64,000 nucleotides of DNA. Origin: Gemmatimonadales bacterium (GTDB lineage Bacteria > Gemmatimonadota > Gemmatimonadetes > Gemmatimonadales > Gemmatimonadaceae). Below, in pieces: positions 9,646 through 60,038 of this stretch; the first letter of the stretch is position 1; every line of letters begins with the position of its first letter. The notes beneath the pieces are model-generated. The model saw only the letters and a list, made by a program, of their open reading frames with translations, was not told the origin of the DNA and made no database searches. The DNA lies in NCBI GenBank assembly GCA_038330215.1, contig JBBQNT010000001.1, positions 1,356-65,355 of the forward strand, in the 5' to 3' direction. The translations under genes were made by a program, and so were the position numbers.

Positions 9646-9663
9646 CACTGAGAGACTGAGAGA
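9646..9663 (+). promoter_or_regulatory. leader motif copy 1: CACTGAGAGACTGAGAGA
   Basis: Exact 18-mer shared with 16372-16389. The 15-mer core is shared with two further copies. 15 nt upstream of ATG 9679. Confidence 0.6.
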
Positions 9664-9678
9664 CAGGAGCCGAACATC

Positions 9679-10353
9679 ATGAAGGTAGAACCCAAATTCC
9701 GAATGCCGCTTGGACGCAGTCTTGCGATGACGGATCGCGCCGCCAATCGTCCGGTGAATGCGTCCGTGGCCACCGTCGAGCGCGTCGAGCGTGAGGCAGC
9801 GCGGAAATTCGCGGCAACCGTCGGTGACGCGCTGAGCAGTGTGCGTTTCCGTGCGGATACTTTCTCCGCTCATCTGGAAGGATTCGTTCGCACAAGCGGA
9901 GCGAGCGAGTTGATTGAGGCTGCGAACGACAGGAGCAAGCCGCACGTCGCGCAGGCCTGTCAAGGGGTTCTCCACAAAGCAGGAGTGGCGGGGTCGCCGC
10001 ATGCCCACCACGCACAGGCCGTGGCTACTGCATTGCGTGAAGCATTCGCCGAAGCAAAACGCGGTCTTGCTGATGCCCATCAGCGCTGGGGCGAAGAGCA
10101 CATCGACACGCCTGAGGCTCGCGAGCAGGTGCAGGCGATCGTCACCAGGATGCACGCAGCCGGTGTGGCGGCAATCACCTTCCTCGGCCACGTCGGTGAT
10201 CAAAACGGACAGCTCCTTGGTCGTGAGGCACGCACCCTGTACCAGGATCTCACGGATACGGCGCACGACGTGGTCGCCAATTTCGACCAGTTCGAGGCCG
10301 GGATGAAGCAGGCTCCAGCCAAGACCGCCAAGGGCGGCATGCGAATGTCATGA
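9679..10353 (+). CDS. hypothetical protein (224 aa)
   Basis: aggag SD upstream, ATGA overlap with the next gene, helical Ala-rich composition. Confidence 0.6.
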   Translation: MKVEPKFRMPLGRSLAMTDRAANRPVNASVATVERVEREAARKFAATVGDALSSVRFRADTFSAHLEGFVRTSGASELIEAANDRSKPHVAQACQGVLHKAGVAGSPHAHHAQAVATALREAFAEAKRGLADAHQRWGEEHIDTPEAREQVQAIVTRMHAAGVAAITFLGHVGDQNGQLLGREARTLYQDLTDTAHDVVANFDQFEAGMKQAPAKTAKGGMRMS

Positions 10354-11123
10354 CGAGTATGCGCGCACCGCTGGTGGTGATCGAAGCGCCTGGAAAGGCG
10401 CGTCGTCTAGCTCAGCTTCTGCGCGCAGCTGGCTACGCTGCGGATGTGTGGGCAACCCGTGGGCACTTCCGAAACAATCCGTCGTCGCTGTGGCCCCTGA
10501 ACATTGACCAGAACCTGGTGGAGACCGCGAGGAGCTACGACTCGGCGCGTCTGGCTGTCCTTCGTGCCGCCGCGCAGAGTCGTTCCGTAATTCTCGCCAC
10601 AGATCCAGATCAGGAAGGTGACGTCATCGCTCGGGACGTCCATGATGCCGTATGCAACATCGCGTCCAGCGTCCAGCGAGTCCACCTGCATGCACTCGAT
10701 GTAGCCGGCGTGAAGCGGGCATTCGCGAACGTCAGACCGTATGACCCAGTCGCCGCCGTACCTGGCGATGCACGACGTATCATCGATCGTCTGGTTGGCT
10801 CCGCATGTTCGAGTGCAAGGAAGCCAGTAGGGCGCGTGTTTACCGGCGCCCTCGGGGCCATGGATCGAACCGATCCAATCGTGGGACACGTCACGCTGAC
10901 GCTACCTGCCGTTGAAGGTCTTCCGTTCGTTGCCCGCGTACCTGTGACCGCACGTACACGGGAGATCTGGATGGAACGCTTGGCAGAATCACGAAGCTTC
11001 TCCGCTGCCACCGTGGCGTTCCAACACACCGAGCTTGGTCCGGCGTGGGGATACGCCAAGTTACTCAGCGTCGCTTCTGGCGCGGCGCTCATGCCGTCGC
11101 ACATTCGTGCAGGTGCGCCTTGA
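10350..11123 (+). CDS. topoisomerase IA-like protein, TOPRIM half (part 1 of a gene split over two frames)
   Basis: LVVIEAPGKARRL (catalytic Glu) and ILATDPDQEGD (DxD) are TOPRIM motifs of type IA topoisomerases. The ORF stops at 11123. Confidence 0.7.
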   Translation: MTSMRAPLVVIEAPGKARRLAQLLRAAGYAADVWATRGHFRNNPSSLWPLNIDQNLVETARSYDSARLAVLRAAAQSRSVILATDPDQEGDVIARDVHDAVCNIASSVQRVHLHALDVAGVKRAFANVRPYDPVAAVPGDARRIIDRLVGSACSSARKPVGRVFTGALGAMDRTDPIVGHVTLTLPAVEGLPFVARVPVTARTREIWMERLAESRSFSAATVAFQHTELGPAWGYAKLLSVASGAALMPSHIRAGAP

Positions 11124-12160
11124 GCGTCGCCGGCGGCGCCGCACTGCTGCAGCGGCTTTATGAAGAAGGCGCGCTGAGCTATCCGCGCTCTGACCATGAT
11201 GCACTCTCCGAAGAATCCGTTGAGATTCTTGCCCGTGTGGCCGAGCGGCATCGTCTGCCATTCGACGGAGCAAACATTCCTCGATTTCACCCCACCGCAG
11301 AGCGACCGCACGAAGCGGTGCACCCGCTCTTCGATGCTGCTACGAAGATCAATCTGGACATCCCGAGCCGCATGCTCTCGACCGCGGATCGGCTCATGCA
11401 CGACCTGACGCGTGCCTGGCTGAGACGATGCGCCGAGATCGATTTCGAGACCGCAGATACGGCGGGTTTGCCGGAGTGGGCGCAAGAACTGGCGTGGATC
11501 CGCCCTGCGACAACGCAACGTCATGCAGCGTTGATATTTGAGGAAGAGCGTGCGCCTCGTGCGAGGCTGACGCTCTACCAACCGGATCTGATCGCGTTGG
11601 GCGTGCTCGACGTGCACCGACTGGGGCGGCCGTCGACATTGGCCGTGCACGCCCAGCACATCGCTGATCGAGGCGTGCTGGATGTCAACGGCATGACCGT
11701 CGAGGGTCGCAGGCTGCTGGCGGACTCTCCCGAAGTGCTGGCGATACCTACGACATCGAGCACCATCGAATCGATTGTAGACGGAACCATTGGCGCCGAG
11801 TGCCCGGCCATCATGCCGTCGACGTCCGACATTACGCTCGCGCGACTCGCTCAGGTGATCGAGTACGCGGTTCCGGAACTCAAACCGCGTTTCGCGCGAG
11901 CCATCGAAGACCAGGCGTTGTCGGACAGCAGCGAGTTCGCTCCGTCGAACCGCGAGACAGAAGACGATCTCAGACGGCCTGTGTTCCTGTGGCCGTGGCT
12001 GACTCTTGCGGAAGAAGAGCAGTCAGTCGAGCGCATTGACGATCGGAAGCGTCAAGAAGAACTGCGCCGCCGCGAGGAAGAACGAGAGCGCATGGAAGCC
12101 CCCGCAGAAACGTCGCTGCCACAACCGGGAGGTGGTCATGCCGCACCCTTACTACGCTGA
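11045..12160 (+). CDS. topoisomerase IA-like protein, catalytic-tyrosine half (part 2; true start undefined)
   Basis: LLQRLYEEGALSYPRSD matches the QxLYE-G-x-I(T/S)YxRTD active-site Tyr motif. The frame differs from part 1 and overlaps it over 11045-11123. Confidence 0.65.
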   Translation: MGIRQVTQRRFWRGAHAVAHSCRCALSVAGGAALLQRLYEEGALSYPRSDHDALSEESVEILARVAERHRLPFDGANIPRFHPTAERPHEAVHPLFDAATKINLDIPSRMLSTADRLMHDLTRAWLRRCAEIDFETADTAGLPEWAQELAWIRPATTQRHAALIFEEERAPRARLTLYQPDLIALGVLDVHRLGRPSTLAVHAQHIADRGVLDVNGMTVEGRRLLADSPEVLAIPTTSSTIESIVDGTIGAECPAIMPSTSDITLARLAQVIEYAVPELKPRFARAIEDQALSDSSEFAPSNRETEDDLRRPVFLWPWLTLAEEEQSVERIDDRKRQEELRRREEERERMEAPAETSLPQPGGGHAAPLLR

Positions 12161-12566
12161 TCCAGAGCGTTCGGTGCCTGCTCTCGTCATCGGACGTCTG
12201 CGAACGGCCGGCTTCGAGGACGTGCGTCCAGCACCCGAACTGCTCGATGGCGACGACTTGGGAATAGATCTGACGGTAGAGCTGGCGTTCGGTCAGATGG
12301 ACGGACTGTTTCCTGTCGTGATCGCGCAAGCGCATCGTATTTTCGAAGACACGTGGCTCGATCGAGGTGGCGCGAGTTGGCCGTTCGCAATCGAGAACGA
12401 TCCGGACAGCATGACCGGTCGACGCGCTCGCTTCATTGGTGACAGTCAAGGCCTGGTCGTCGCGATGCTGTGCATCGTTGGCGTCTTAGAGCAATGGGTA
12501 GATCGCAGTGCGACGCCACCTCCGGTGCTCGCCATAGGGGACAATCATGAAAGTCGCGAACAGTAA
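12138..12566 (+). CDS. hypothetical protein (142 aa)
   Basis: Internal ATG of track ORF 12006..12566, preceded by ggaggtgg SD. Overlaps both neighbours. Confidence 0.5.
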   Translation: MPHPYYADPERSVPALVIGRLRTAGFEDVRPAPELLDGDDLGIDLTVELAFGQMDGLFPVVIAQAHRIFEDTWLDRGGASWPFAIENDPDSMTGRRARFIGDSQGLVVAMLCIVGVLEQWVDRSATPPPVLAIGDNHESREQ

Positions 12567-14799: not shown

Positions 14800-14802
14800 C
14801 CA

Positions 14803-15649: not shown

Positions 15650-15761
15650 GTCGCTTCTCCTGATCAGTTCGAGCCTCGAACATAGCTTGCATTCGGGCGA
15701 GTGAATCATACCTGAATTTCGCGCTCCAAATATGGAGCATAAGTCGCTGGCGTATGGATCT

Positions 15762-15810: not shown

Positions 15811-16362
15811 ATGTTGACTACCGCCGGTGAGAAAAGTGACGCCGTTGATACTGGGGTGGAAACCTCAGCCCCACAGGGAGCCTGGCCGCCTGCCGGTGCT
15901 GTCGACGAAGAGATCGTGCTCGAAACTCCCGCAGTACCCGACGAGCCCGATTCGGCAGCTCCTGCGCAATCGGACAACGTGCGAACGCTCGCTGATGGCA
16001 GAAGCATCACCCGCCGTGTCAACGCGCTTCGCGAGACCACGGCACGCAAGGTCGGAATGGACAGCATGGCGCGCCACCTGCGCGCCTTTCGGGAAGAAGT
16101 TCTGCGTGTCCGTCAGGAGGACATGGCATTCCTGCTGGGCGTCAGTCGCATGACGTATCAGCGTATGGAGAACGGGCACACTGGTGTTGCGATTGACGCG
16201 TGGTTGCGCGCGATGCAACTCATGGATCACCTGCCTACCCTGACGAAGATGGATCTTGCCCGTGATCGCGCTGCGCTGGCCAAATTTCAGCGACAAGCCG
16301 ATGAACATGAGCGCGAGCTGGCTGCTTTGGAAGAGGCGAACCCGGAGCGCTTTTACGGCTGA
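15811..16362 (+). CDS. XRE-family HTH protein, HipB-like antitoxin candidate (start uncertain; alternative ATG at 16057)
   Basis: FREEVLRVRQEDMAFLLGVSRMTYQRMENG is an XRE HTH, immediately upstream of the HipA-like gene. The N-terminal ~80 aa are acidic/Pro-rich low complexity. Confidence 0.7.
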   Translation: MLTTAGEKSDAVDTGVETSAPQGAWPPAGAVDEEIVLETPAVPDEPDSAAPAQSDNVRTLADGRSITRRVNALRETTARKVGMDSMARHLRAFREEVLRVRQEDMAFLLGVSRMTYQRMENGHTGVAIDAWLRAMQLMDHLPTLTKMDLARDRAALAKFQRQADEHERELAALEEANPERFYG

Positions 16363-16371
16363 CGTTGTACC

Positions 16372-16389
16372 CACTGAGAGACTGAGAGA
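16372..16389 (+). promoter_or_regulatory. leader motif copy 2: CACTGAGAGACTGAGAGA
   Basis: Identical 18-mer to 9646-9663. 8 nt upstream of ATG 16398, in the hipB-hipA-like intercistronic gap. Confidence 0.6.
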
Positions 16390-16397
16390 GGCTGACT

Positions 16398-17807
16398 ATG
16401 CGAGAGACGATTGCGGTATACACCCAGGACTTGAATGGTCGCTGGCAGCGAACAGGATTGATTCGCGGTCCGCAGGATGGTGACGGTGGTGGGTTCATCT
16501 ACGCGAAGGACTACCACGGGCCGTCGCTCGCGCCGCAACTCGACTACACCGCACGCGAACCCGATGGTGTTGGCGGTGAGCGCGTCTTTCTGCTGCCCGG
16601 CGAGTTGATCGATGGTCCGCAGTCGCGGACGGATCTCCATAGCGTCTTCGAGAGCGCATTGCCGGGCAAAGCGGGGCGCCAGGTGATCGCGATGCGTTCG
16701 CCTGGGTTCCTCAAGCTCTCGCCTTTCGAGCAGCTCGCCACGCTGGCAGCGCTTGGTGATTGGCGAAGCGGCGGGATGATGTTCGTGCGCAGCTCGGAAG
16801 GACTCGATTTCCGCGCAACGCCTGGACTCGAAGCGCTCTCTGCGTTGAACGACGAGATCAATCGCAAAGTGCTCGAAATTACCGAGCGCGGTGGGATCCC
16901 GACTGGCACGACGATCGGTCGGCCGGAGGATCAGTGGGCCTTGGCCACCAACAGGTCGGAAGCGTTCACGGTCGAGGTGTGCCACAACGGCCAGTTCTGG
17001 GTGGCTGGCGCGGCACGAGAGATCATGGAATCGGAACAGGAAGGGCGTCTGGAGGCCGGGCTGCTGAAGGCCTCTGAGATGTCCGGTATTCCCACGGTCG
17101 ATCGGCTGCTCTATGAACCGACGAACGGCCATGGTGAAGCGCTGTTGCTCACGAAGCGCAGCGACACCGTTGCACTGCCGCCGCTGGACAACGCCGGCGA
17201 TCTCGATGATGAGGACAATGTCCCCAGTTTGCGTACGCACAAGATCAGCATGTTCGTTGCGCTCGATGTCACCGAGCGAACGCAGCTCGACTACGTCGAC
17301 ATGGCGCGATTTCTGGAGGTCAACAGCGCTCAGCCGGACACGGATGTGCGGGATCTGTACAGCCGCATGATGCTGAATGCCTTTTCGGAAGTGTCCAATG
17401 ATCACCTTGGTCAATTCGAACTGCTGCAGCGAGGCGATCGCTGGAACCTCGCTCCATCCCACGGACTGATGATCGACGACCCCGACCATCAGCGTCCTCA
17501 CGCGTTGAAGATGGCGGGCACGGCGCGACCGGAATTTAGCGTGGAATGGATCGACCGATGCTCGAAGGCTTTCGGCCTGCCACGCGAGGAAGGTCGCGAG
17601 ATCGCGTCGAAGGTGTTGCGCGAGGTTGCACGACTGCCCGAATACTGGCGCGCATACGGCATGTCCGAAGAGATGCTCGCGCGAGTGTCGAAGTACACGC
17701 AGACCGGCCTTCATCAGACGCTTCGGAACAAGCTCGAAGGAACGCTCGACAGTGGTATGGATTGGACTCCGTCGTCATCGCCATCGAAGAGCATGCGCAT
17801 GGGCTGA
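16398..17807 (+). CDS. HipA-family (HipA_C-like) kinase-fold protein, toxin candidate with atypical catalytic motifs
   Basis: RTHKISMFVAL...YVDMARFL...LYSRMMLNAFSEVSNDHLGQFELL...WNLAPSHGL follows the HipA C-terminal pattern (R.H..S...L, N.DDHLRN, W.L(S/A)PAYD). Paired with an upstream XRE gene. Confidence 0.7.
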   Translation: MRETIAVYTQDLNGRWQRTGLIRGPQDGDGGGFIYAKDYHGPSLAPQLDYTAREPDGVGGERVFLLPGELIDGPQSRTDLHSVFESALPGKAGRQVIAMRSPGFLKLSPFEQLATLAALGDWRSGGMMFVRSSEGLDFRATPGLEALSALNDEINRKVLEITERGGIPTGTTIGRPEDQWALATNRSEAFTVEVCHNGQFWVAGAAREIMESEQEGRLEAGLLKASEMSGIPTVDRLLYEPTNGHGEALLLTKRSDTVALPPLDNAGDLDDEDNVPSLRTHKISMFVALDVTERTQLDYVDMARFLEVNSAQPDTDVRDLYSRMMLNAFSEVSNDHLGQFELLQRGDRWNLAPSHGLMIDDPDHQRPHALKMAGTARPEFSVEWIDRCSKAFGLPREEGREIASKVLREVARLPEYWRAYGMSEEMLARVSKYTQTGLHQTLRNKLEGTLDSGMDWTPSSSPSKSMRMG

Positions 17808-17857: not shown

Positions 17858-17888
17858 GCCTGAAATACTGGGGCCGTTTCGACTGGAC

Positions 17889-17914
17889 GTGTGTAATATA
17901 TGTACAATACACAC
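17889..17914 (+). promoter_or_regulatory. operator-like IR GTGTGTA-N12-TACACAC overlapping -10-like TACAAT (17903-17908), upstream of topB
   Basis: Read directly. 26 nt upstream of ATG 17941, which has an aggag SD. Confidence 0.55.
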
Positions 17915-22780: not shown

Positions 22781-22835
22781 TCGATTCGCTCCTGCAGGCC
22801 TGCAGCAGACGCTTCAACCTTGAGAGACGAATGCC

Positions 22836-44415: not shown

Positions 44416-44702
44416 CGACGTGGGCCTCTTGAGCGATGCCTCGCAGCAGCGGGCTGCAGATCCTTCGCGTCGGCCAAGAGGCCGAGTTCAAACGCCCTTG
44501 CGTGTGTTTCCGGCGACAGCGCAACTTCATCTGCCGCGGCCCATCGAACCGCATCGCGCACTGCGTCGTCTCTGTTTCTATAGCGTCCGATTCCACTTTG
44601 GATGGGCTCAAACGGAGCGAAATTGTCGTGCATGAAGGCGAAGTACCCTGTCATTCCCATCGAAATGCTGATTGCTACCTTGTTTTCGTCGATATTGCTC
44701 AT
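44412..44702 (-). CDS. hypothetical small protein (96 aa)
   Basis: 4-nt overlap with the MTase gene stop. Confidence 0.5.
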   Translation of the reverse strand: MSNIDENKVAISISMGMTGYFAFMHDNFAPFEPIQSGIGRYRNRDDAVRDAVRWAAADEVALSPETHARAFELGLLADAKDLQPAAARHRSRGPRR

Positions 44703-46384
44703 AGACCAGGTGCCCTCCTTTTCGTGATGCGTTCTGCTGCAACAATCATGTGCTCAGCAACGCGCTCCCCAAGGGCAACTGCGTGCCCGAACAGAATCGA
44801 CTGCCCAAGTGCTTCATGAGCGACCGTGCTGCTGACGCCGGCGACGAGCGATTCTGGAATGCCTTTCACACGTGCGTGCTCAGTCGGCGTCAGCAAGCGC
44901 TCCAATCCATCGGCCCGAGTAAGTTGGGCTTCGGTGGATCTGCGCTTGGAGTACCCACGGCCGATACATCCAACCGTCGTCGCGTCTTCCCCTACGAGTT
45001 GTCGCTTGAAATTCTTTCCTTCAAGCGCATCGCGCGCCGCCTTCCGGTGCAAATACTCGTTCCCAGACCAGCTCGGATTATCATCGCTAACCGGTTCGAG
45101 CACCTCGCCAAGCCGAGCATACTTCCGCGCAATTTGCGGCAGTTGATCGAGACTAAATCCTTCTGCGAGACCTTCGCTCAAGCACACCATCCACCATCGC
45201 TGGCGCGACTCGATCGTGCCGGCCTGCTCGTGATCGAGCACGGTCTCGAAAATCTTGTAACGGTTCTCCGTGAGGTACGCCCGCAAGATCGCGTAGGACG
45301 CGCTGGTCGACGCGAGCGTGATGTTCTCGCTGATGATCGCGCTGGGCTGGACGGCATCGATCAGACGCAAGGCACCGAAAATTGCCAACGTGTCGGTGGG
45401 ATGATCTTCCGCGACCGCGAGCTTCCTCTTCGCTTTTCCTGAGCGCGAATGCAGAGTGCACGGTAGCGAGATGGACAGCAACGACGCCTTCGAGAGCAAG
45501 CACGGCGCCAACTCTTCGAGGCTTGCCTCGAAGAGGCGCGTAGCGCCGGTGACTGCGGGATTGTTGTCGTTCGCGATTTCGAGATAGCGCCGTTCGCGAT
45601 CGACAATCCAGTCGACGCGACTGCGCAGTCCTGCACGCTGGACGCCTTCTGAAATCGCGAGAGTAGAAACGCCGGCGCCGGCGCACAGCGTTCCCTCGGT
45701 CAAGTAACCGCGGGTCACCTGGTCGCACAGCCGCGCTTCACGCTCCGCTTTTGCCACCTCGCGCGCGGCCAGCGTGAACTGGATCTGGCCAGGACGGATG
45801 ACCGCCTGCAGGCGCATACCTTCACTGACGATCTCGCTCAGCGCTTCCGAGGCCACATCGATAATCGGTGTGGGTGCCCGATTCGCCCGAGCACGTCCTG
45901 AAACGACGCGATCGCCATCAGCGTCGATCGTCAACGTGATGGTCCGTCGTTCGAGATCGAGGACAACGGAATACGCTGCGCCCTTCTCGAATCCTGCGTC
46001 GCTCAACCGGAGGCCTTCCAGCCACACCCGGCGGCGCCCACGATGCTCGCCCACCGTTGTGTAACTCACCTGCACGGGATCGTCATTTCGGCCCACGACC
46101 TGGCCGCGCGGCATCTTGATCATCCGCACTTGCGGAAACTGTGATCGCACGTCGTCAGCGAACTCACGCATCCCGATGTTCGCCGGCCGTAGCCATCCGT
46201 CAGGACCTCGCTCGAAGCCCAGCTCGCGCAACTCCTCTGCGTACGCCTCGGCGCCGGCGCCGCGAGCGCGAAGACTGTTCACGCGATCTGCTTTTTGATC
46301 GCCACGGACGAGCTGGAACTCAAGCCGGTATCCAGACAGATCGAACCATGTCGGATCTGCCATGTTCTCTGATCGTTCGTCCAT
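44699..46384 (-). CDS. DNA (cytosine-5) methyltransferase-like protein with ~200-aa N-terminal extension
   Basis: Motif I TLCAGAGVSTLA, motif IV SLPCTLHSRSG, motif VI ISENI, motif VIII ESRQRWW, motif IX LLTPTEHARVKGIP, motif X-like GQSI. Confidence 0.75.
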   Translation of the reverse strand: MDERSENMADPTWFDLSGYRLEFQLVRGDQKADRVNSLRARGAGAEAYAEELRELGFERGPDGWLRPANIGMREFADDVRSQFPQVRMIKMPRGQVVGRNDDPVQVSYTTVGEHRGRRRVWLEGLRLSDAGFEKGAAYSVVLDLERRTITLTIDADGDRVVSGRARANRAPTPIIDVASEALSEIVSEGMRLQAVIRPGQIQFTLAAREVAKAEREARLCDQVTRGYLTEGTLCAGAGVSTLAISEGVQRAGLRSRVDWIVDRERRYLEIANDNNPAVTGATRLFEASLEELAPCLLSKASLLSISLPCTLHSRSGKAKRKLAVAEDHPTDTLAIFGALRLIDAVQPSAIISENITLASTSASYAILRAYLTENRYKIFETVLDHEQAGTIESRQRWWMVCLSEGLAEGFSLDQLPQIARKYARLGEVLEPVSDDNPSWSGNEYLHRKAARDALEGKNFKRQLVGEDATTVGCIGRGYSKRRSTEAQLTRADGLERLLTPTEHARVKGIPESLVAGVSSTVAHEALGQSILFGHAVALGERVAEHMIVAAERITKRRAPGL

Positions 46385-46389: not shown

Positions 46390-46404
46390 TCTCTCAGTCT
46401 CTCA
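46390..46404 (-). promoter_or_regulatory. leader motif copy 3 (TGAGAGACTGAGAGA on the minus strand)
   Basis: 5 nt upstream of start 46384. Confidence 0.6.
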
Positions 46405-46413
46405 AGGTGTAGT

Positions 46414-46439
46414 GTGTGTATTGTGCTAGTATTACACAT
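46414..46439. promoter_or_regulatory. operator-like IR GTGTGTA-N12-TACACAT in the divergent promoter region
   Basis: Read directly. The minus-strand reading gives a -10-like CACAAT adjacent to ACACAC. Confidence 0.55.
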
Positions 46440-46496
46440 ATCGTGTATAACCCGCACGCGGCACCTTCCGGGTGCCCAAAAACGACCGGAGCAACC

Positions 46497-52075: not shown

Positions 52076-52078
52076 GAG

Positions 52079-53818: not shown

Positions 53819-53833
53819 GGGCGTATCCGTTGT

Positions 53834-53859
53834 GTGTGTATTAGATACTAAGTATACAC
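53834..53859. promoter_or_regulatory. operator-like IR GTGTGTA-N12-TATACAC upstream of the ankyrin operon
   Basis: Read directly in the 49-bp gap between the helicase stop (53868) and the ankyrin start (53818). Confidence 0.5.
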
Positions 53860-53867
53860 AAAACCTT

Positions 53868-56800
53868 TCAATGCCGCATCCGACCGGCCGACGCTGCCCG
53901 CTGAGGTTGCTCCACCAGCTCGGCCTCGTCGTCGTCTGTATCGGCCTCCGGTAGGGACTCCATCTCGCCCAGGTCGGCGAGCGCCGCCTGGACATCGAAA
54001 TCGTCCAGTGTTGTGGCCTTCCGACCCGCGTCGACGCCGTACTGCGCGAGCGCTTCCACGAATCCCTGCATTCCGAGCCCCGTTGCCGACTCATTCGCCT
54101 TGGCCAACTCCACGTTGATCTCGGACTGCTCCCGGCGAAGAACAGTCAGAGCGTCTTCGTGTGGCCATCGCTCAGTCATCGCCGCTTTGACCTCGGAGAT
54201 CTCTTCCCGATTGCGGGTCAACGTGTCGCGTCCGCGGCGGATTGCGTCCGCGATCGCGGTGGCTCCGTTCTCGATACGGCGCACCATTCCGACAGGGCTC
54301 AGCGAAATGTCGATCGTCTGCAGGGGAACCAGCGTCGCCTGGCCTTTCGGCGTCAGCATCATGTAGGGCGACGCGTTGAAGCTCGTACGCAACACCACCG
54401 ACAGGCCTTCGAAATCCCCAAGCACGTGCACCTGCTTGTAGGTTTCTTTCGCTGCCGCTGTCGCAGCGATCAACAACGAGTTGCCGGCGTCTCGACGACT
54501 TGCGTACTCGCGCGACCCGACCGTCATCACGAAGGGCGGGCCGTTTCCCGCGATTTCCTCCTCGGCCTCGACTGCGGGACCAGCAAGAGCCTTCGTCTTC
54601 GGCGCTTCCGATTCCTTGCGCGCTGCAGCTGCCTCCGCAGCAGCTTGGTGACGACTGGCCCTGCTTGGCATCGCCGCGTCAATCACCGCCTGCATGTTCA
54701 GCAGCACGTTCAGCTCTCGCTCGACCCGATCAATCGTGGATCCACACAGATCCAGCCGCGACTGCCGGCTGCTTCGCTGCTGTCCCCACGCCATGCGCAA
54801 CAGGTCAAGTCGGCGCACCTCCGTGTCGACAACGCACTTTCGGCGAACCAGCGGATTGTCCGAGGCTTCCGCCTCGATCGCCTCGAACGACATCGTTCCC
54901 GAGTCCTCCGCGATCTTGCGAACCAACCCCGCACCATCGTTACCGCTCGCCAACCCTTCCATGACCTGGGCGATGAAGTTCGCCTTCAGCGTCACAAGTC
55001 GCCAGTTCCAGTCCTCCAGCATGCCCTTCGTGACGTACGTCCAGATCTCGACCTCAGGAAACTGATTGCCGTTGCGAATGATCCGGCCGTTGCGCTGAGT
55101 GACCGCGCCAGGATGAAACGGTGCATTCAGGTGATGGAGTCCCGCCAATCGGTCTTGGATGTTCGCTCCCTCCCCCATCTTCTCGGTAGAGCCGAGCAAC
55201 ACCCGGATGGTCCCCTCTCGCACACGCCTGTACATCGCGAGCTTGTCGACATCCGACTTCGCGTCGTGAATGTAGGCAATCTCGTCGCGAGGAATCCCAC
55301 GATCAACCAGCTTGGCCGTCAATGCCTCGTAGGCATTGAAGCTGATATCCGCTTTTCCGGCTCGTGGTGTCGCAAGATCGAGGAATATCGCTTGTGCACC
55401 TCGGCGATCTGACGTCTTGTGGTGAATCCGTGCAACGCAATCTGCCACCTCGCGAAGCTTCGAGCCGCCGACATCCTCGGGCAACTCAGGATAGAGGGTT
55501 CGTACGTCGAGAGCCCCACGACGCGCATCACCCAGCACACACAGGATGTTGTCTTGACCCTTCTCCGGCTTTCGCCCACTTCGTTGACGGATCTCTTCAA
55601 CGCGTGCGGCGAGCGACTCGCGCAAGCGCTGTTGAAGCTCTGTCGGCTCCACCGACACCGTATGGAAGTTCGGTGTCGGCCGATCGAAGAACGCGTTGGT
55701 GTCGGGAACTGAATCGACAAACTGCGCCAGCATGCGCACGAGTTCGGGAACGTTCCGGATCTCAGCCAGGCGGTTGACGATTCGATACCCCTTGCCCGCG
55801 GGATCCGGCTCCAGTGATTGCACCGTGTCTGCGAACTGTGCGCGCCATGCGTCGAAGTGCATGACGTTGGCTTGTTCCAGAAGTCCGGGCTGCAGGTATC
55901 GCTGCATGTTGAACACCTCGGCAACGGTGTTCGTGATCATCGATCCGGTGGCAAAAATCACCTTGCCGCCGTTCTCCTGCAGGAACCGGACTTTGGAAAG
56001 CATGTCGAAGGCGCGCTGCGACGCCGACGACGGAATACCGAGAATTTGCTCGCTGCTATGAACCTGCAGCGCCTTGAAGCGATGGGCCTCGTCTACCATG
56101 AGGGTCGTCACGCCCAGGTCGGCGAGCGTGATACGCATGTCATCCTTTTCGTCGAGGTTCATCAGCTTCGTGAGCTGCGCGCACTTGCCTGCAAGCTGCG
56201 CCTCCATCTGCTTCACACGACGCGCGTTGCCGCCTTCCTGCTGCACGGCAGCTACCTGTTCGCCGTATGCGGCAATCTCGTCCATGAGAAAGCGGACCTC
56301 CGCGTCCTTCGGCAGACGCAGCCGCTTGTACGCCTCCGGTGTCGCCAGAATCAGATCAGGCGATGTCACCTGCACGCGCCGCCAGAATCGACCTCGGCCA
56401 GACGGCGTGAGGTCTTCAGAGCGGATCGTCAGAATTCGCGCTGTTGGAAACCATCGTTTCGCCTCGCCGGCGAACTGGATGATGACGTTCTTCGGCGTCA
56501 CGACCAGGCTCTTGCCGCCGAGGACCTGGCGCAGCTTCACCGCGGTCGCGGACATCGTGGCCGTCTTCCCGAAGCCCACCGGGTGCGCGAGCAGGACGTT
56601 GTCGTCCAGCAGGCACCTCGCAAGCCCTGTCGCCTGGTGCGTCCGCAGCTGACGTGTCGTCGTCATACCTGACACGCTGATGGGAATCTGCCGATAGTCG
56701 GCAGACCGATGCGCATTGAACAGCTCGTTGTATGACGTCTCCAGCGACTTCACGCGCTCCGGCGCGTCCCACACCCAGCGCGCAAACAACTCTTTCAGCT

Positions 56801-59800
56801 CCCTCTGCTTCTCGATCGCGATTGCCGTCGCGACCTCGTCGACCACCCGCTTCTTGTCGTCCTCATCCGATGGCTTCGTGACCTTGGCCGACTTACCGTT
56901 CAGGGCGGCCTCGATCAGTTCATACGTGCGCATGCGTGGCGTGTCGTAGGTCTCCGAGCGCTGATACTTCGGAACCTTCACCTCCCAGCCTCCGGTTACC
57001 GATGAGAATGTGACGTCGAAGTGCGCCATCAGCGGGCTGGTGTCGTACACGTGGTAAAGGAAATCGCGAATGATCGCTGGCTCGATCCAGCGCATGCCTA
57101 GCGCAGCGGAGATCTCGTCCTTCGTCAGCCACTGTGGAAGGCGCTCACGCAAGGCAGCAACATTCGCGCCCAGCTCCGAATTGGCTTCGGCGGCGCGTTC
57201 GGCAATCCGCAACTTCTCACGCACATTGCCGGACAGATATCGCGCTGCGATGTCCCACTGGCCGCTCGCCGGATCTCGGAACACTTGCTCCGAAAGCTCG
57301 GCAACGCACTGGTCCCAGGCCTTGCCGGAATGCTTCGCAATCCATTCGGCGTCCACACCACCTGTTTGATCGATGCAAGCGACCAAAGCGTCTTGCACGG
57401 ACTCGCAACGCACGACGCCACGCGGCCCGATCGTCCTCGTGGTGAATATCTCGGCCTTGCCGATGAATCGGTTTTCGTCATCGAGAACTTCAAGCGCATG
57501 CACCGCGTCGAAAATAGGATCGTCTTGGAGCAGCCGACGATTCTTGTTGCGACGTCCCTCTGCTACCCGTCCATGCGCCTCGACGAACGCGGCGTATGCC
57601 TTTTCGAGTCGGTCCTGCAAGATAGCCAACTCACCGTCATCGCAACCACTCAGTTGCGCTTGAATCAGGTCCGCAACGGCATCGCGCAGAGGGATGTAGT
57701 CGCGGATGCGCTGCTCGTCGCGCCCATTCAGGCCAGTGATTCGCGTCGGCTTGCCGTTGAGCACTGCTCCGACGTCGTCGCTTCCCAAGATCGCGAATGC
57801 TCCCTCCGATCGCGGATCGAAGAACGGCCGGACATCCGGCTCTGCATCTCCGCCAGCGGCGGAGATCTCGCTCGCACTCAAGGGCCGATGAATGCCGGCC
57901 GGGACATGCTGCGGAATGATCCCGAGCCAATCCGACAGCGATCGCGGTAACCCGCCATCCGGATGGTGCCGAGTCACGCTGTTACGCACGGCGCCGTACA
58001 TTCGTTTCGACGACACCAAGTGTCCGAGGACATGACCGCGACTCGTTGCAAAGATTCCGTTCATCGTCATCGACGATTCGTCGACGCCCTCACGGACGAT
58101 GCAATCGGACCAGTCAAAATCTGCCGGCGCTTCGCCGGGCAGCCGCTTCCGAATCATCAGCAGATCCGTCGTGACATCTGTGTTCGCGTTCGACTTAAAG
58201 GCGTCCTCTGGCAATCGGAACGCTGCGACCAGGTCGCCACGCTCGTACATCGCCTCACGCACCTTCGGATTCTGACGATCGAGCGTGCCGGTACCGGTGA
58301 GGCACATCAGCACGCCCCCTGGACGCAGCTTGTCGAGCGACTTGACGATGAAGTAGTCGTGGATATACGCGTTGAGTTTCCGATAGTCCGGATCGAAGAC
58401 CTGAAAGCTACCGAACGGCACGTTTCCGATCACGAGATCGATCGACTGATCCGGAATCGCGGTCTCTTCGAACCCAGCCGCGAAGACCTTCGCCCGCGGA
58501 AACAACATGCGCAGGACTCCGGCCGTTGCAGGATCCTTCTCGACGGCGACAAAGCGCGTCGCTTCCTTGACCTGATCAGGTACGCGTGCAATGAACATTC
58601 CGGTACCAGCACCGGGCTCCAACACGCGCCCGCCAACAAATCCCGCATTCAGCGCCGCTGACCACATCGCATCGATCACTTGGTGATGCGTGTAGTGGGC
58701 GTTCATCGTACTGGCGCGCATCTGCGCGTACTCGTCGTCGCTCGCCAGCGCCCGCAACTGCTCGTTGAACGAGCGAAACAGCGCGTGCTCTTCGCTGAAC
58801 ACACCCGGCAACCCACCCCAACCGACATAGCCGATCAGCGCATCGAGGTCCTCTTCGCTCGGCTCATCTCCGCTTCGCCGAAGTCCCTGCAGGATGCGCA
58901 ACGCCTTCAGGTTCCCCTCCACCGCCATTCGATCGTTCCATGCCGACCGTAGAACACGCTCAGGTTCATCAAGGCGGTAGTTCTCTCGTCCCGACTGCGG
59001 AACATCCAGAAGCGCGGACGCGAAATCATCGTCATTGGCGAGCGTCGCCGGCTCGATCGCAGCTGCTGCAGGTTCGGACGTAGTCGTTGTGTCGACCGGC
59101 GGGGCTTTGTCCGTGCGCTGCTCCACCGGTCCGGCAGCCGCCGCTGGATCCGCATCACTGGCCGCGACGCTTTCGGGCTCTTCGTCCCGCTGCAACGCCC
59201 CGGATCCGAAACCCTGCGTCACCATGTTTCTCAGGAGCAAGTTGCCGAAGGTCCGATCAAGCCGGCGGACTTCTCCGCCCATGAGCGGGTTCTGGGTAGC
59301 GGTTTCGATGAGCGTCAACGTGCCATCGACGTTGAGGCGAAACACTGCTTCTGCGTCGATGAACGTGTCACCGTTCTGACGCCGGTAATGCGTGAACATC
59401 ACACGCTGGTGCTCGCCCGTGTGGCGACCATTCGCATCGACAGTCGGATGCGGTTGACGCTCGATCACGAGCTGCATGTACGGCGGGTTGTCGATTCGTG
59501 CGATGAAATCGAGGTTCTGATCGCGGTCGATCACGGCGATGCGTTCGGCGAGACCAAGGGCGTGCAGCAACCGGGCAGCGTCCCGCTCTGCAGGACTATG
59601 CTGCTCCTGCGCGCCGGCAACGCCGGCACGGCGCTTCAACTGCTCTGCAGGTGCCGCGCTCGTCGCTGGTGTTGGTATCGCATCGGATTCGAGCTTCGCT
59701 ACGCGCTCGTTCGTCCACACCACGAACGTCTCGCGAGGCACCTGCACGATCTGCATGAGTGGGAACGCATCGCGCACCGCTTGAAACCGGAACGCTTCGT

Positions 59801-60014
59801 CAGCACCGAACTTACGATGCCAACGCCCCGACTTTGAGTGCGGCCGCATCCCGAATGCGCTCAGCGCGTCGGCGTTCCGTTCCGTTTGTCCCCCGGCGAC
59901 CAGCACTCGCTCGCGGGAACCTCGGCTGGACACCAGGAAGAACTTCAAACCGTAGGCGGCAAGATCCACCCACGGGACCGGCGCGCTGGCCGGTGCGGTC
60001 GATTCGTTGGTCAT
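53868..60014 (-). CDS. polyvalent protein: N-terminal conserved domain, N6-adenine DNA methyltransferase, SNF2/DEAD-like helicase and long C-terminal region (2048 aa)
   Basis: MTase motif I VLEPGAGTGMF, motif IV DLVIGNVPFG. Helicase motif I LLAHPVGFGKTA, motif II LMVDEAHRFK, motif VI GAVTQRNGRIIRNGN. Confidence 0.85.
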   Translation of the reverse strand: MTNESTAPASAPVPWVDLAAYGLKFFLVSSRGSRERVLVAGGQTERNADALSAFGMRPHSKSGRWHRKFGADEAFRFQAVRDAFPLMQIVQVPRETFVVWTNERVAKLESDAIPTPATSAAPAEQLKRRAGVAGAQEQHSPAERDAARLLHALGLAERIAVIDRDQNLDFIARIDNPPYMQLVIERQPHPTVDANGRHTGEHQRVMFTHYRRQNGDTFIDAEAVFRLNVDGTLTLIETATQNPLMGGEVRRLDRTFGNLLLRNMVTQGFGSGALQRDEEPESVAASDADPAAAAGPVEQRTDKAPPVDTTTTSEPAAAAIEPATLANDDDFASALLDVPQSGRENYRLDEPERVLRSAWNDRMAVEGNLKALRILQGLRRSGDEPSEEDLDALIGYVGWGGLPGVFSEEHALFRSFNEQLRALASDDEYAQMRASTMNAHYTHHQVIDAMWSAALNAGFVGGRVLEPGAGTGMFIARVPDQVKEATRFVAVEKDPATAGVLRMLFPRAKVFAAGFEETAIPDQSIDLVIGNVPFGSFQVFDPDYRKLNAYIHDYFIVKSLDKLRPGGVLMCLTGTGTLDRQNPKVREAMYERGDLVAAFRLPEDAFKSNANTDVTTDLLMIRKRLPGEAPADFDWSDCIVREGVDESSMTMNGIFATSRGHVLGHLVSSKRMYGAVRNSVTRHHPDGGLPRSLSDWLGIIPQHVPAGIHRPLSASEISAAGGDAEPDVRPFFDPRSEGAFAILGSDDVGAVLNGKPTRITGLNGRDEQRIRDYIPLRDAVADLIQAQLSGCDDGELAILQDRLEKAYAAFVEAHGRVAEGRRNKNRRLLQDDPIFDAVHALEVLDDENRFIGKAEIFTTRTIGPRGVVRCESVQDALVACIDQTGGVDAEWIAKHSGKAWDQCVAELSEQVFRDPASGQWDIAARYLSGNVREKLRIAERAAEANSELGANVAALRERLPQWLTKDEISAALGMRWIEPAIIRDFLYHVYDTSPLMAHFDVTFSSVTGGWEVKVPKYQRSETYDTPRMRTYELIEAALNGKSAKVTKPSDEDDKKRVVDEVATAIAIEKQRELKELFARWVWDAPERVKSLETSYNELFNAHRSADYRQIPISVSGMTTTRQLRTHQATGLARCLLDDNVLLAHPVGFGKTATMSATAVKLRQVLGGKSLVVTPKNVIIQFAGEAKRWFPTARILTIRSEDLTPSGRGRFWRRVQVTSPDLILATPEAYKRLRLPKDAEVRFLMDEIAAYGEQVAAVQQEGGNARRVKQMEAQLAGKCAQLTKLMNLDEKDDMRITLADLGVTTLMVDEAHRFKALQVHSSEQILGIPSSASQRAFDMLSKVRFLQENGGKVIFATGSMITNTVAEVFNMQRYLQPGLLEQANVMHFDAWRAQFADTVQSLEPDPAGKGYRIVNRLAEIRNVPELVRMLAQFVDSVPDTNAFFDRPTPNFHTVSVEPTELQQRLRESLAARVEEIRQRSGRKPEKGQDNILCVLGDARRGALDVRTLYPELPEDVGGSKLREVADCVARIHHKTSDRRGAQAIFLDLATPRAGKADISFNAYEALTAKLVDRGIPRDEIAYIHDAKSDVDKLAMYRRVREGTIRVLLGSTEKMGEGANIQDRLAGLHHLNAPFHPGAVTQRNGRIIRNGNQFPEVEIWTYVTKGMLEDWNWRLVTLKANFIAQVMEGLASGNDGAGLVRKIAEDSGTMSFEAIEAEASDNPLVRRKCVVDTEVRRLDLLRMAWGQQRSSRQSRLDLCGSTIDRVERELNVLLNMQAVIDAAMPSRASRHQAAAEAAAARKESEAPKTKALAGPAVEAEEEIAGNGPPFVMTVGSREYASRRDAGNSLLIAATAAAKETYKQVHVLGDFEGLSVVLRTSFNASPYMMLTPKGQATLVPLQTIDISLSPVGMVRRIENGATAIADAIRRGRDTLTRNREEISEVKAAMTERWPHEDALTVLRREQSEINVELAKANESATGLGMQGFVEALAQYGVDAGRKATTLDDFDVQAALADLGEMESLPEADTDDDEAELVEQPQRAASAGRMRH

Positions 60015-60023
60015 CCGTCACGT

Positions 60024-60038
60024 TCTCTCAGTCTCTCA
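60024..60038 (-). promoter_or_regulatory. leader motif copy 4 (TGAGAGACTGAGAGA on the minus strand)
   Basis: 9 nt upstream of start 60014. Confidence 0.6.

What the first reader, a model, noticed from the sequence alone, without database searches (positions are those of the whole stretch)
9646..60038. Exactly conserved 15-nt leader TGAGAGACTGAGAGA in front of four unrelated start codons
The 15-mer, a tandem CTGAGAGA repeat, occurs four times. Each copy is on the coding strand, 5-15 nt upstream of a start codon. Copies: 9649-9663 (+, 15 nt before ATG 9679); 16375-16389 (+, 8 nt before the hipA-like ATG 16398); 46390-46404 (-, 5 nt before the C5-MTase start 46384); 60024-60038 (-, 9 nt before the polyvalent MTase-helicase start 60014). 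Copies 1 and 2 are identical over 18 nt (CACTGAGAGACTGAGAGA) and are intercistronic. Copies 3 and 4 lie between the operator/-10 described above and the start codon, in what would be a very short 5' leader. The chance expectation for one extra exact copy of a given 15-mer in 128 kb of two-strand sequence is about 1e-4. The purine-rich GAGAGA may double as a Shine-Dalgarno surrogate. The element therefore looks like a shared translation-initiation or post-transcriptional control cassette, possibly a target of an RNA-binding protein, sRNA or RNase. It would couple a kinase-like toxin, two DNA-modification enzymes and an unknown protein. Alternatively it could be a direct-repeat DNA site.
Basis: seen in the sequence. 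Interest (0 to 1): 0.7.

Follow-up and report, generated by a model that had tools for sequence, protein, structure and literature searches.

The report
Tandem TGAGA leader before start codons
Four unrelated genes of an uncultured conjugative element each carry the same short tandem repeat (core TGAGA) just upstream of the start codon; diverged relatives keep it at the same genes, so it is probably a shared translation-control signal whose binding partner is unknown.

Summary
TGAGAGACTGAGAGA occurs four times exactly, with no 1-2-mismatch variants. Each copy is on the coding strand, 5-15 nt before a start codon.

The window is part of an IncI/Dot-Icm-like (MPF_I) conjugative element from an uncultured bacterium with about 60% G+C.

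The exact 15-mer is not the conserved unit. Three lineages with 60-63% protein identity carry 2-3 tandem units with a TGAGA core and a 7-9 nt period. The units sit at the same genes (polyvalent methylase-helicase, C5 methylase, HipA-like kinase, 224-aa protein, LPD7 protein), always 0-17 nt upstream of the ATG. Relatives at 54% identity or less have ordinary Shine-Dalgarno sites instead.

The repeat follows the start codon, not the promoter. Its period varies, it is predicted to be unstructured, and it pairs only moderately with the anti-Shine-Dalgarno sequence.

My best reading is a single-stranded mRNA operator next to the ribosome-binding site, bound by an unidentified multimeric factor that represses translation of establishment and toxic genes. 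This mechanism is inferred, not shown.

Rivals are a factor-free Shine-Dalgarno surrogate, tandem mini-uORFs (NTG-AGA...) coupled through ATGA overlaps, and a double-stranded DNA operator. There is no Rfam or literature match. Interest is moderate, and the feature looks like a new variant of a known kind.

The parts
9649..9663 (+). Copy 1 of the tandem leader (CTGAGAGA x2; the 18-nt identity with copy 2 starts at 9646). It is intercistronic and lies 15 nt before ATG 9679. A separate AGGAG Shine-Dalgarno sequence sits between the repeat and the ATG.
   Evidence: orthologous sites in L056 (TGAGAATTGAGATAcagggagc) and L057 (GTGAGATCTGTGAGAG)
16375..16389 (+). Copy 2. It lies between the stop of the Xre/HTH_31 gene (16362) and the HipA-like ATG at 16398. 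The repeat runs into a GAGG Shine-Dalgarno sequence.
   Evidence: orthologous junctions in L057 (GTGAGACTGTGAGAaggag) and L056 (CTGAGATTTGAGAGG after the HTH stop)
46390..46404 (-). Copy 3. It lies in the 5' leader of the C5 DNA methylase gene, 5 nt before ATG 46384. There is no other Shine-Dalgarno-like sequence.
   Evidence: the L188 orthologue has CTGTGAGA x3 abutting the ATG
60024..60038 (-). Copy 4. It lies in the 5' leader of the 2048-aa polyvalent methylase-helicase gene, 9 nt before ATG 60014.
   Evidence: orthologues L188, L190 and L192 carry 2-3 TGAGA units at the same place
22820..22828 (+). A single unit, TTGAGAGAC, identical to the first unit of copies 3 and 4. It lies 7 nt before the ATG (22836) of an RNase_T-type exonuclease gene. 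This may be a fifth, half-size site.
9679..10353 (+). Target gene 1: a 224-aa protein with no Pfam hit, inside the operon that encodes Toprim/topoisomerase-like proteins and a DotA/TraY-family protein.
16398..17807 (+). Target gene 2: a HipA_C kinase-like protein. The Xre-HipA pair is conserved in all relatives examined.
44699..46384 (-). Target gene 3: a C-5 cytosine DNA methyltransferase (561 aa).
53868..60014 (-). Target gene 4: a polyvalent protein with DUF6908, an N6-methylase domain and an SNF2/DEAD helicase domain.
60040..60056 (-). Hairpin (AUCCGC-ACUUA-GCGGAU) immediately 5' of copy 4. A hairpin of different sequence sits at the same place in L188, L190 and L192.
   Evidence: by eye and single-sequence folds; the alignment-based fold failed
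60056..60085 (-). Promoter/operator-like inverted repeat TGTGTGTATACT...TACACACA upstream of copy 4. This is a separate element that is also present at genes without the TGAGA leader.
46413..46450 (-). Promoter/operator-like region TTATACACGATATGTGTAATACT...ATACACACA upstream of copy 3.

Best explanation
The 15-mer is this element's version of a lineage-specific cis-regulatory leader. The leader consists of two or three tandem units with the core UGAGA (period 7-9 nt), placed in the mRNA directly 5' of, or running into, the ribosome-binding site of a defined set of genes. These genes are the polyvalent methylase-helicase, a C5 methylase, a HipA-like kinase, a 224-aa protein in the type IVB secretion operon and, in relatives, an LPD7 protein.

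I propose that it works on single-stranded RNA as a translational operator. A multimeric or multi-domain trans-acting factor would bind the repeated pentamers. A protein encoded by the element or the host is most likely, and an sRNA less so. Because the site lies within the 30S footprint (0-17 nt from the ATG) and no inhibitory structure needs opening, binding would repress initiation. These establishment or potentially toxic genes would then get a burst of expression after entry into a new cell and be shut down together afterwards, alongside the separate TGTGTA...TACACA transcriptional operator.

Shown: the motif, its statistics, its strand and position rule, its conservation at orthologous genes in three lineages, its absence from more distant relatives, and its lack of structure.

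Inferred: that it acts at the RNA level, that a trans-acting factor exists, and that the effect is repression.
For: 1. Non-random and exact.
2. Every zero-mismatch TGAGA-N2-4-TGAGA hit in about 137 kb of motif-bearing loci (window, L056, L057, L188, L192) lies on the coding strand, with 0-17 nt between the last TGAGA and a start codon. L190 has a one-mismatch version at the same place.
3. Orthologous conservation although proteins are only 46-70% identical and the flanking leader sequence has diverged.
   - Polyvalent gene: window TGAGAGACTGAGAGA; L188 TGAGATCTGTGAGACCTGTGAGAG; L190 TGAGACTTGTAAGACTGTGAGAG; L192 ATGAGATATGAGAC.
   - C5 methylase: L188 CTGTGAGA x3.
   - HipA, 224-aa and LPD7 genes: L056 and L057.
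4. The repeat is tied to the ATG, not the promoter. The L188 methylase leader is about 70 nt longer, yet the repeat still abuts the ATG. Two window copies are intercistronic with no promoter-like site nearby.
5. The period varies (7, 8 or 9 nt) and the copy number varies (2-3). Flexible RNA tolerates this; rigid duplex DNA does not.
6. The leaders are unstructured around the motif (z-scores +1.7, +0.2, +1.4, -0.7), so the site is accessible and nothing needs unmasking.
7. Operon-internal copies keep their own Shine-Dalgarno sequence, so the repeat is an addition to the ribosome-binding site, not a replacement.
8. Gain in one subclade: relatives at 54% identity or less (L060/61, L063/64, L065/66, L067/68, L195) and plasmid pXCV183 have none at these genes and use AAGGA/AGGAG instead.
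Against: - No candidate factor was found. No CsrA, Hfq, ProQ/FinO, KH, S1 or NusG domain appears in any window ORF scanned.
- No complementary sRNA-like sequence occurs in the window (both strands).
- Only 64 kb of a 108.8-kb contig was visible.
- Only three lineages carry the motif, and L188 and L190 are close, so the number of independent observations is small.
- Exact 15-nt identity of four copies is unusual for a protein site, although the relatives' copies are degenerate.
- No transcript, RNA-end or binding data exist. The direction of the effect (repression or enhancement) is pure inference.
Confidence: 0.45

Rival explanations
1. Factor-free translation signal. The purine-rich, unstructured GAGAGA units act as a Shine-Dalgarno surrogate or a ribosome standby (landing) site that raises initiation without any dedicated partner.
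For: The C5 methylase and polyvalent genes, here and in L188, L190 and L192, have no other Shine-Dalgarno-like sequence. The topoisomerase III gene has the same promoter type but no repeat, and it has a strong AGGAG. The leaders are unstructured. The 15-mer/anti-Shine-Dalgarno duplex is -6.3 kcal/mol, similar to AGGAG at -6.6.
Against: 22% of random window 15-mers pair with the anti-Shine-Dalgarno sequence as well as the motif does. The conserved base set includes the U and the repeat architecture (TGAGA x2-3), which a Shine-Dalgarno role does not require. Operon-internal copies keep a separate canonical Shine-Dalgarno sequence downstream. More distant relatives manage with plain AAGGA. Each lineage keeps one unit type at all its sites, which points to a matching partner.
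Confidence: 0.2
2. Tandem mini-uORFs. Each unit is read as NUG-AGA (a start codon plus the rare Arg codon AGA), giving 2-10-codon leader ORFs. Many of these end in a UGA that overlaps the main AUG (AUGA). The main gene would then be translated by termination-reinitiation, possibly gated by tRNA-Arg(UCU) supply or peptidyl-tRNA drop-off, as with start-stop or minigene elements.
For. In 7 of 13 sites (7 of the 8 whose main ORF begins ATGA) a unit-initiated ORF stops at the TGA overlapping the main ATG. All four polyvalent orthologues do so despite different spacers (17, 11, 14 and 20 nt, all equal to 2 mod 3), and L188 and L190 differ by a 3-nt indel. Units are GTG in every copy of the L057/L188/L190 lineage and ATG in both copies of L192. 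In L190 the degenerate middle unit reads TTG-TAA. In the window the first unit always reads YTG-AGA-GAC-TGA.
Against: 6 of 8 units in the window start with CTG, a very poor initiator. No Shine-Dalgarno sequence is suitably spaced for the uORFs. Three sites do not fit (window copies 2 and 3, L056 LPD7). A at +4 is common anyway (45-48% of genes), and the test was post hoc (rough binomial p about 0.02, my estimate). Orthologous sites are not independent.
Confidence: 0.12
3. Double-stranded DNA operator. A repressor that binds short tandem direct repeats (for example a ribbon-helix-helix protein like omega of pSM19035 or MetJ, or an ArdK-like regulator of CUP elements) sits on the repeats and blocks transcription initiation or elongation.
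For: Two contiguous 7-8 bp direct repeats are the known minimal operator type for ribbon-helix-helix proteins (my own knowledge). Copies 3 and 4 lie just downstream of promoter/operator-like sequences. L188 encodes a NikA-like ribbon-helix-helix protein next to the polyvalent promoter. Repeated upstream DNA elements controlling leading-region genes are known in IncN plasmids (CUP/ArdK, PMC6289460).
Against: The period changes between 7, 8 and 9 bp, which would rotate the half-sites on duplex DNA. The position is fixed to the ATG, not the promoter. Two copies lie inside operons without promoter-like sites. All sites are on the coding strand.
Confidence: 0.13
4. Shared seed target of a trans-encoded sRNA, or a processing site for a sequence-specific endoribonuclease, encoded in the unseen part of the element or by the host.
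For: Exact 15-nt identity of four copies in this element is what base pairing would select. The site lies at the ribosome-binding site, the usual sRNA target region.
Against: No complementary sequence occurs in the 64-kb window at up to 2 mismatches other than the sites themselves. In the sister lineages only the pentamers are conserved while spacers and period vary, which fits protein recognition better. No sRNA family matches.
Confidence: 0.08

Closest known systems
Phage T4 RegA translational repressor and its operators (my own knowledge)
   Same: One mobile-element factor acts on many unrelated early mRNAs through a short, unstructured sequence at or next to the ribosome-binding site, and so shuts off an early gene set after transcription.
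   Different: RegA sites are AU-rich, overlap the AUG, and are not tandem pentamer repeats. No RegA-like protein was found here. The role proposed here is inferred only.
CsrA/RsmA family, including CsrA paralogues carried by Legionella integrative conjugative elements (my own knowledge)
   Same: A dimeric RNA-binding protein binds two short purine motifs, one near the Shine-Dalgarno sequence, and represses translation of a regulon. Paralogues are known on conjugative elements with type IV secretion systems.
   Different: The defining GGA core is absent from the 15-mer and from the TGAGA core. CsrA sites usually sit in hairpin loops and are at least 10 nt apart, whereas here they are unstructured and 7-9 nt apart. 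No CsrA domain is present in the window (Pfam scans).
CUP (conserved upstream) elements and ArdK of IncN plasmids (Delver & Belogurov 1997, as cited in PMC6289460)
   Same: A repeated conserved sequence in front of several unrelated establishment and anti-restriction genes of a conjugative plasmid defines one regulon.
   Different: CUP elements are promoter-containing DNA sites bound by a transcription factor, with a 13-nt consensus. Here the repeat follows the start codon, occurs inside operons, and coexists with a separate operator-like inverted repeat.
Phage Mu Com-mom control (my own knowledge)
   Same: A DNA-modification (anti-restriction) gene is controlled at translation by a protein that binds the mRNA just 5' of its start.
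   Different: Com activates translation by opening an inhibitory stem at a single site. Here no inhibitory structure is predicted, and the site is a tandem repeat shared by at least 4 genes.
Omega (pSM19035) and MetJ-type operators made of tandem 7-8 bp repeats (my own knowledge)
   Same: Two or three contiguous 7-8 nt direct repeats act as the recognition unit, and several operons share them.
   Different: Those act on duplex DNA at promoters with a fixed period. Here the period varies and the position is set by the ATG.

Membership tests
Shine-Dalgarno sequence | Complementarity to the 3' end of 16S rRNA (core GGAGG) clearly above background | tested here: not met
   The 15-mer duplex with a generic anti-Shine-Dalgarno sequence is -6.3 kcal/mol. 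21.6% of random window 15-mers do as well, and the canonical AAGGAGGUGA gives -16.1. The host 16S rRNA is unknown, so a generic tail was used.
Shine-Dalgarno sequence | Spacing of about 5-10 nt to the start codon and no second Shine-Dalgarno sequence in between | tested here: inconclusive
   Copies 3 and 4 (5 and 9 nt, no other Shine-Dalgarno sequence) fit. Copy 1 (15 nt, with AGGAG in between) and L057 HipA (AAGGAG in between) do not.
CsrA/RsmA binding site | GGA core motif | tested here: not met
   There is no GGA in TGAGAGACTGAGAGA or in the conserved TGAGA core.
CsrA/RsmA binding site | A CsrA-family protein available in the element | tested here: inconclusive
   No CsrA Pfam hit in about 70 window ORFs. 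However, 45 kb of the contig and the host genome were not seen.
Rfam cis-regulatory or sRNA families | Covariance-model match at or near the gathering score | tested here: not met
   (whole window, gathering threshold) gave 0 hits. (the four leaders, E up to 1) gave only one chance-level miRNA hit (16 bits against a gathering score of 72).
CUP/ArdK-type upstream DNA element | The repeat contains or overlaps the promoter and is bound by a transcription factor | tested here: not met
   The repeat lies downstream of the promoter-like sequences, tracks the ATG, and occurs at intercistronic junctions without promoter-like sites. Binding itself cannot be tested with these tools.
RfaH/NusG-paralogue ops-like recruitment site | A single conserved non-template-strand element in the operon leader plus a NusG-like protein | tested here: not met
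   The motif is tandem, also lies inside operons, and is adjacent to start codons. No NusG or KOW Pfam hit in the window ORFs (same Pfam calls). The unseen part of the element was not tested.
TRAP-type (G/U)AG repeat operator | Many (at least 6-11) triplet repeats spaced by 2-3 nt | tested here: not met
   Only 2-3 pentamer units per site.
Start-stop or mini-uORF leader | A competent start codon (ATG, GTG or TTG) in each unit followed closely by an in-frame stop | tested here: inconclusive
   This is met in the L057/L188/L190 lineage (GTG) and in L192 (ATG). In the window, 6 of 8 units start with CTG. The stop overlaps the main ATG in 7 of 13 sites.
MPF_I (IncI/Dot-Icm-like) conjugative element (context) | DotA/TraY, an IcmO-like coupling protein and type IVb pilins | tested here: met
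   the 750-aa protein matches annotated DotA/TraY proteins of MPF_I plasmids, 29% identity over 87% of its length. TraG-D_C coupling protein and PilS/N_methyl pilins; context of plasmid pXCV183.

The most novel reading that the evidence does not exclude
A subclade of uncultured MPF_I conjugative elements has evolved a dedicated post-transcriptional regulon. An as yet unknown element-encoded RNA-binding factor, with no recognisable known RNA-binding domain, would read tandem UGAGA pentamers placed next to the ribosome-binding sites of anti-restriction, toxin and secretion genes. It would time their translation after DNA entry. Each lineage has its own unit and period (CTGAGAGA, 8 nt; CTGTGAGA, 8-9 nt; NTGAGAW, 7 nt).
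Probability: 0.3. Interest if true: 0.7.

Novelty: new variant of a known kind. Interest (0 to 1): 0.55.

Why it matters
How conjugative elements time the expression of establishment and anti-defence genes (methylases, polyvalent proteins) and keep toxic genes quiet is known mainly at the level of transcription: single-stranded DNA promoters, ArdK/CUP, KorA/KorB.

A shared translational operator would add a second, post-transcriptional layer. It would also give a simple sequence handle (TGAGA tandems next to start codons) for finding the co-regulated gene set and, by pull-down, a possibly new RNA-binding regulator.

If instead the units are mini-uORFs coupled through ATGA overlaps, the element would be a compact natural example of reinitiation-based control repeated across a regulon.

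Either way the finding can be tested directly with four short leaders.

Tried and rejected
- Megablast of 43 kb of the window against PLSDB plasmids found no relatives, only a 100-nt methylase hit.
- The search for related loci with the polyvalent protein on genome contigs found no relative.
- Exact 15-mer scans gave background only. The viral scan returned 53 loci, almost all single hits at roughly chance level. Neither recovered the source contig or relatives. The exact 15-mer is therefore not a general signal, and these scans say nothing about the element family.
- Exact-protein look-ups showed only short metagenome copies of the same element (L054, L055).
- Cluster look-up gave no accession or organism name.
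- Literature searches for the 15-mer and for UGAGA-binding factors found nothing relevant.
- The alignment-based consensus fold of the four polyvalent leaders failed because MAFFT did not align the hairpins. The hairpin rests on single-sequence folds and inspection only.
- An antisense transcript from the divergent AAA gene is unlikely as the partner. That gene most likely starts at ATG 46497 with its own GGAG, so its promoter should lie downstream of the motif.
- A stop-codon cassette covering all three frames is rejected, because 9-nt periods put all the TGAs in one frame.
- A target-site-duplication footprint, iterons, a promoter for leaderless mRNA, a methylase target site and pairing with the 16S 5' end (CUCAG) were each considered. 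Each was dropped because it fails on the orientation or position rule, or on the TGTGAGA variant.
- A comparison of gene content between motif-bearing and motif-less loci gave no candidate factor. Coverage was too partial.

Full report
**1. Observation**

The 15-mer TGAGAGACTGAGAGA occurs four times in the window, and all four copies are exact: 9649-9663 (+), 16375-16389 (+), 46390-46404 (-) and 60024-60038 (-). No additional hits appear at up to two mismatches. Shuffles give 0.22 expected hits, and none of 100 shuffles reaches four.

Reading the sequence confirms the stated gaps of 15, 8, 5 and 9 nt to ATG 9679, 16398, 46384 (-) and 60014 (-). Copies 1 and 2 share 18 nt, and copies 3 and 4 share 17 nt. 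All copies are on the coding strand.

The downstream genes are these:
- a 224-aa protein without a Pfam hit;
- a HipA_C kinase-like protein, preceded by an Xre/HTH_31 gene;
- a C-5 DNA methylase;
- a 2048-aa polyvalent protein (DUF6908, methylase, SNF2/DEAD helicase).

Copies 1 and 2 are intercistronic, and no promoter-like site is nearby.

**2. Context**

The window belongs to a conjugative element of the IncI/Dot-Icm (MPF_I) kind:
- It encodes type IVb pilins, a lytic transglycosylase and a TraG-D_C coupling protein.
- Its 750-aa protein matches annotated DotA/TraY proteins of Xanthomonas, Stenotrophomonas and Pseudomonas MPF_I plasmids.
- It also encodes topoisomerase III, a split Toprim/topoisomerase pair, an integrase, a second C5 methylase, an ankyrin protein and a TniB-like ATPase.

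G+C is about 0.60. No close plasmid exists in PLSDB. The source is an NCBI contig of 108,809 bp without a name. One distant relative is a Dokdonella MAG.

**3. Comparative evidence: the key result**

Homologues of the Toprim protein and of the polyvalent protein led to syntenic loci.

Two other lineages, with roughly 46-70% protein identity to the window, carry related tandem repeats at the same genes.

L057 and L190 (one NCBI metagenome assembly) and L188:

| Gene | Locus | Sequence before the start codon |
|---|---|---|
| 219-aa gene | L057 | ttGTGAGATCTGTGAGAGcgaggtgagtgATG |
| LPD7 | L057 | ttGTGAGAGGTGTGAGATG |
| HipA | L057 | ttGTGAGACTGTGAGAaggagtagggcgATG |
| polyvalent | L190 | TTGTGAGACTTGTAAGACTGTGAGAGcgccgccATG |
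| polyvalent | L188 | TTGTGAGATCTGTGAGACCTGTGAGAGcgccATG |
| C5 methylase | L188 | CTGTGAGACTGTGAGACTGTGAGAATG |

L056 and L192 (one sample):

| Gene | Locus | Sequence before the start codon |
|---|---|---|
| 223-aa gene | L056 | cgTGAGAATTGAGATAcagggagcaatgacATG |
| LPD7, after the HTH stop | L056 | CTGAGATTTGAGAGGaacatcacATG |
| HipA | L056 | GTGACTATGAGAGcgaggaacacccATG |
| polyvalent | L192 | cATGAGATATGAGACgccaaaATG |

The conserved entity is therefore (TGAGA-N2-4) repeated two or three times. The window uses CTGAGAGA with an 8-nt period. The second lineage uses (C)TGTGAGA(N) with an 8-9 nt period. The third uses NTGAGAW(W) with a 7-nt period.

Every zero-mismatch TGAGA-N2-4-TGAGA hit in the window and in L056, L057, L188 and L192 lies on the coding strand, with 0-17 nt between the last TGAGA and a start codon. 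L190 carries only a one-mismatch version, at the same place.

Relatives at 54% identity or less (L060/61, L063/64, L065/66, L067/68, L195) have none at these genes and show plain AAGGA or AGGAG ribosome-binding sites. L195 has one isolated hit on the opposite strand, which I take to be chance. A 42-kb stretch of plasmid pXCV183 has none.

Roughly 1% of strand positions lie within 25 nt upstream of a called start. Even five independent gene contexts all obeying the rule is therefore far beyond chance (my estimate from the gene counts).

**4. Where it acts**

The evidence favours the mRNA over duplex DNA.
- The repeat keeps its place next to the ATG while the promoter-to-ATG distance changes. 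The L188 methylase leader is about 70 nt longer than the window's.
- In the polyvalent leaders the conserved blocks are the GTGTGTA... promoter/operator and the repeat, with variable sequence between them.
- Two copies sit inside operons.
- The period varies between 7 and 9 nt, and the copy number between 2 and 3.
- Single-sequence folds leave the motif unpaired, with z-scores of +1.7, +0.2, +1.4 and -0.7.

The motif is not simply a Shine-Dalgarno sequence.
- Operon-internal sites keep a canonical Shine-Dalgarno sequence between the repeat and the ATG: AGGAG, GAGG, GAGGTGA or AAGGAG.
- The predicted duplex with the anti-Shine-Dalgarno sequence is -6.3 kcal/mol, which 22% of random window 15-mers match.
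- Only the promoter-proximal methylase and polyvalent genes lack any other Shine-Dalgarno-like sequence.
- The topoisomerase III gene is driven by the same promoter/operator type without the repeat, and it has a strong AGGAG.

**5. Mechanism**

My best-supported model (confidence 0.45) is a single-stranded RNA operator next to the ribosome-binding site, recognised by a multimeric or multi-domain trans-acting factor.

The site lies within the 30S footprint and no inhibitory structure needs opening. I therefore infer that binding represses initiation. The methylases, the polyvalent protein, the HipA-like kinase and the other targets would be switched off together once the element is established. 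This would complement the separate TGTGTA...TACACA operator.

This mechanism is inferred. No factor was identified: no CsrA, Hfq, ProQ, KH, S1 or NusG domain appears in about 70 ORFs. No complementary RNA is present in the window.

Rival explanations:
- **(a) Factor-free enhancer or Shine-Dalgarno surrogate (0.2).**
- **(b) Tandem mini-uORFs (0.12).** Reading each unit as NTG-AGA gives short ORFs whose TGA overlaps the main ATG in 7 of 13 sites. All four polyvalent orthologues do this, and L188 and L190 differ by a frame-preserving 3-nt indel. Against this, the window's units are mostly CTG, A at +4 is common (45-48%), and the test was post hoc.
- **(c) Duplex-DNA operator for a repressor that binds tandem repeats (0.13).** The variable period and the link to the ATG argue against it.
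- **(d) sRNA or RNase target (0.08).**

**6. Comparison with known systems**

Rfam has no match, and the literature searches found nothing.

Functionally the closest analogues are the phage T4 RegA regulon, CsrA-type control, Mu Com-mom and, at the DNA level, the CUP/ArdK regulon of IncN leading regions (PMC6289460). Apart from CUP/ArdK, these comparisons rest on my own knowledge. The defining features of each family that could be tested are not met (see the membership table). I therefore file the motif as a new variant of a known kind of element, a shared cis-regulatory leader, and not as a member of any named family.

**7. Limits**

- Only three motif-bearing lineages were found, and two of the loci (L188, L190) are close to each other.
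- Transcription starts are unknown.
- 45 kb of the source contig and the host genome were not seen.
- All look-up caps for further contigs were used.

**8. Verdict**

Interest is moderate (0.55).

Noticed in passing
window 60056-60085 (-), 46413-46450 (-), 17885-17914 (+), 53833-53851 (-), about 7610-7640; also L188 about 9600-9630 and L190 about 9080-9110: A second shared element. A TGTGTA(T/A)A(C/T)T...(A)TACACAC inverted repeat encloses a -10-like TATACT/TAATAT/TAATAC. It precedes the polyvalent, C5 methylase, topoisomerase III and ankyrin genes and the divergent promoter region of the type IVB secretion operon. It is probably the operator of an element-encoded repressor. It is conserved in L188 and L190 (GTGTGTAAAG..., TGTGTATAAT...ATACACAC).
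   Followed up: partly
window 60040-60056 (-); L188 2942-2961; L190 2484-2503; L192 162-176: In all four polyvalent-gene leaders a short hairpin of different sequence sits immediately 5' of the TGAGA repeats: AUCCGC/GCGGAU, CCCGG/CCGGG and CCGAC/GUCGG. This looks like compensatory change, but the alignment-based test failed. The hairpin could be a 5' stabiliser or an attenuator.
   Followed up: partly
window 60014-60056 (-): In the window only, the 5' arm CAUCCGC can pair either with the adjacent GCGGAU or with ACGGAUG, which covers the polyvalent start codon. RNAfold's minimum-energy structure takes the second option (-10.9 kcal/mol, z = -2.0). The TGAGA repeats lie in the loop between the two alternatives. 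This is not conserved in L188, L190 or L192.
   Followed up: partly
window, whole: The pentamer TGAGA (both strands) is strongly under-represented: 68 observed against 134 +/- 11 expected in dinucleotide shuffles. It could reflect codon usage (the TGA stop, the rare AGA codon) or avoidance of spurious sites. I did not separate these explanations.
   Followed up: no
window 10350-12160 (+) and all relatives: A type IA topoisomerase-like protein is split into a 257-aa Toprim protein and a protein of about 370 aa with a partial Topoisom_bac match. Both are conserved, next to a DotA/TraY gene, in every relative. A full-length topoisomerase III is also present at 17941-20205.
   Followed up: no
window 15811-17807 (+); L057, L060, L063, L065, L067: The Xre/HTH-HipA_C pair is a conserved core module of this element family, not cargo. 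A small antisense ORF (44-79 aa) always lies just upstream of it.
   Followed up: no
L075, L076, L078, L086, L098, L105, L119, L124 (genome-contig hits): The exact 15-mer also occurs as part of (CTGAGAGA)n octanucleotide microsatellites, with hits spaced 16 nt apart, in several Bacteroidales/Bacteroidota MAGs. It also occurs more than 10 times across the Candidatus Trichofilum aggregatum MAG. Both are unrelated to this element.
   Followed up: no
window 19718-19814 (+): ARAGORN calls a 97-nt tRNA-Val (GAC) inside the topoisomerase III coding region. This is almost certainly a false positive.
   Followed up: no
window 46497-47858 (+): The AAA/RuvB-like ATPase gene, divergent from the C5 methylase, most likely starts at ATG 46497 (GGAG 5 nt upstream). 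It probably does not start at GTG 46416, the first start of the ORF, which would overlap the operator.
   Followed up: partly
window 52841-54094 (-): The ankyrin-repeat gene probably starts at ATG 53817, behind its own TGTGTATACT...TACACACA promoter/operator just after the polyvalent stop. It probably does not start at the first ATG of the ORF (54094). Its orthologues in L188 and L190 are 343-345 aa.
   Followed up: partly
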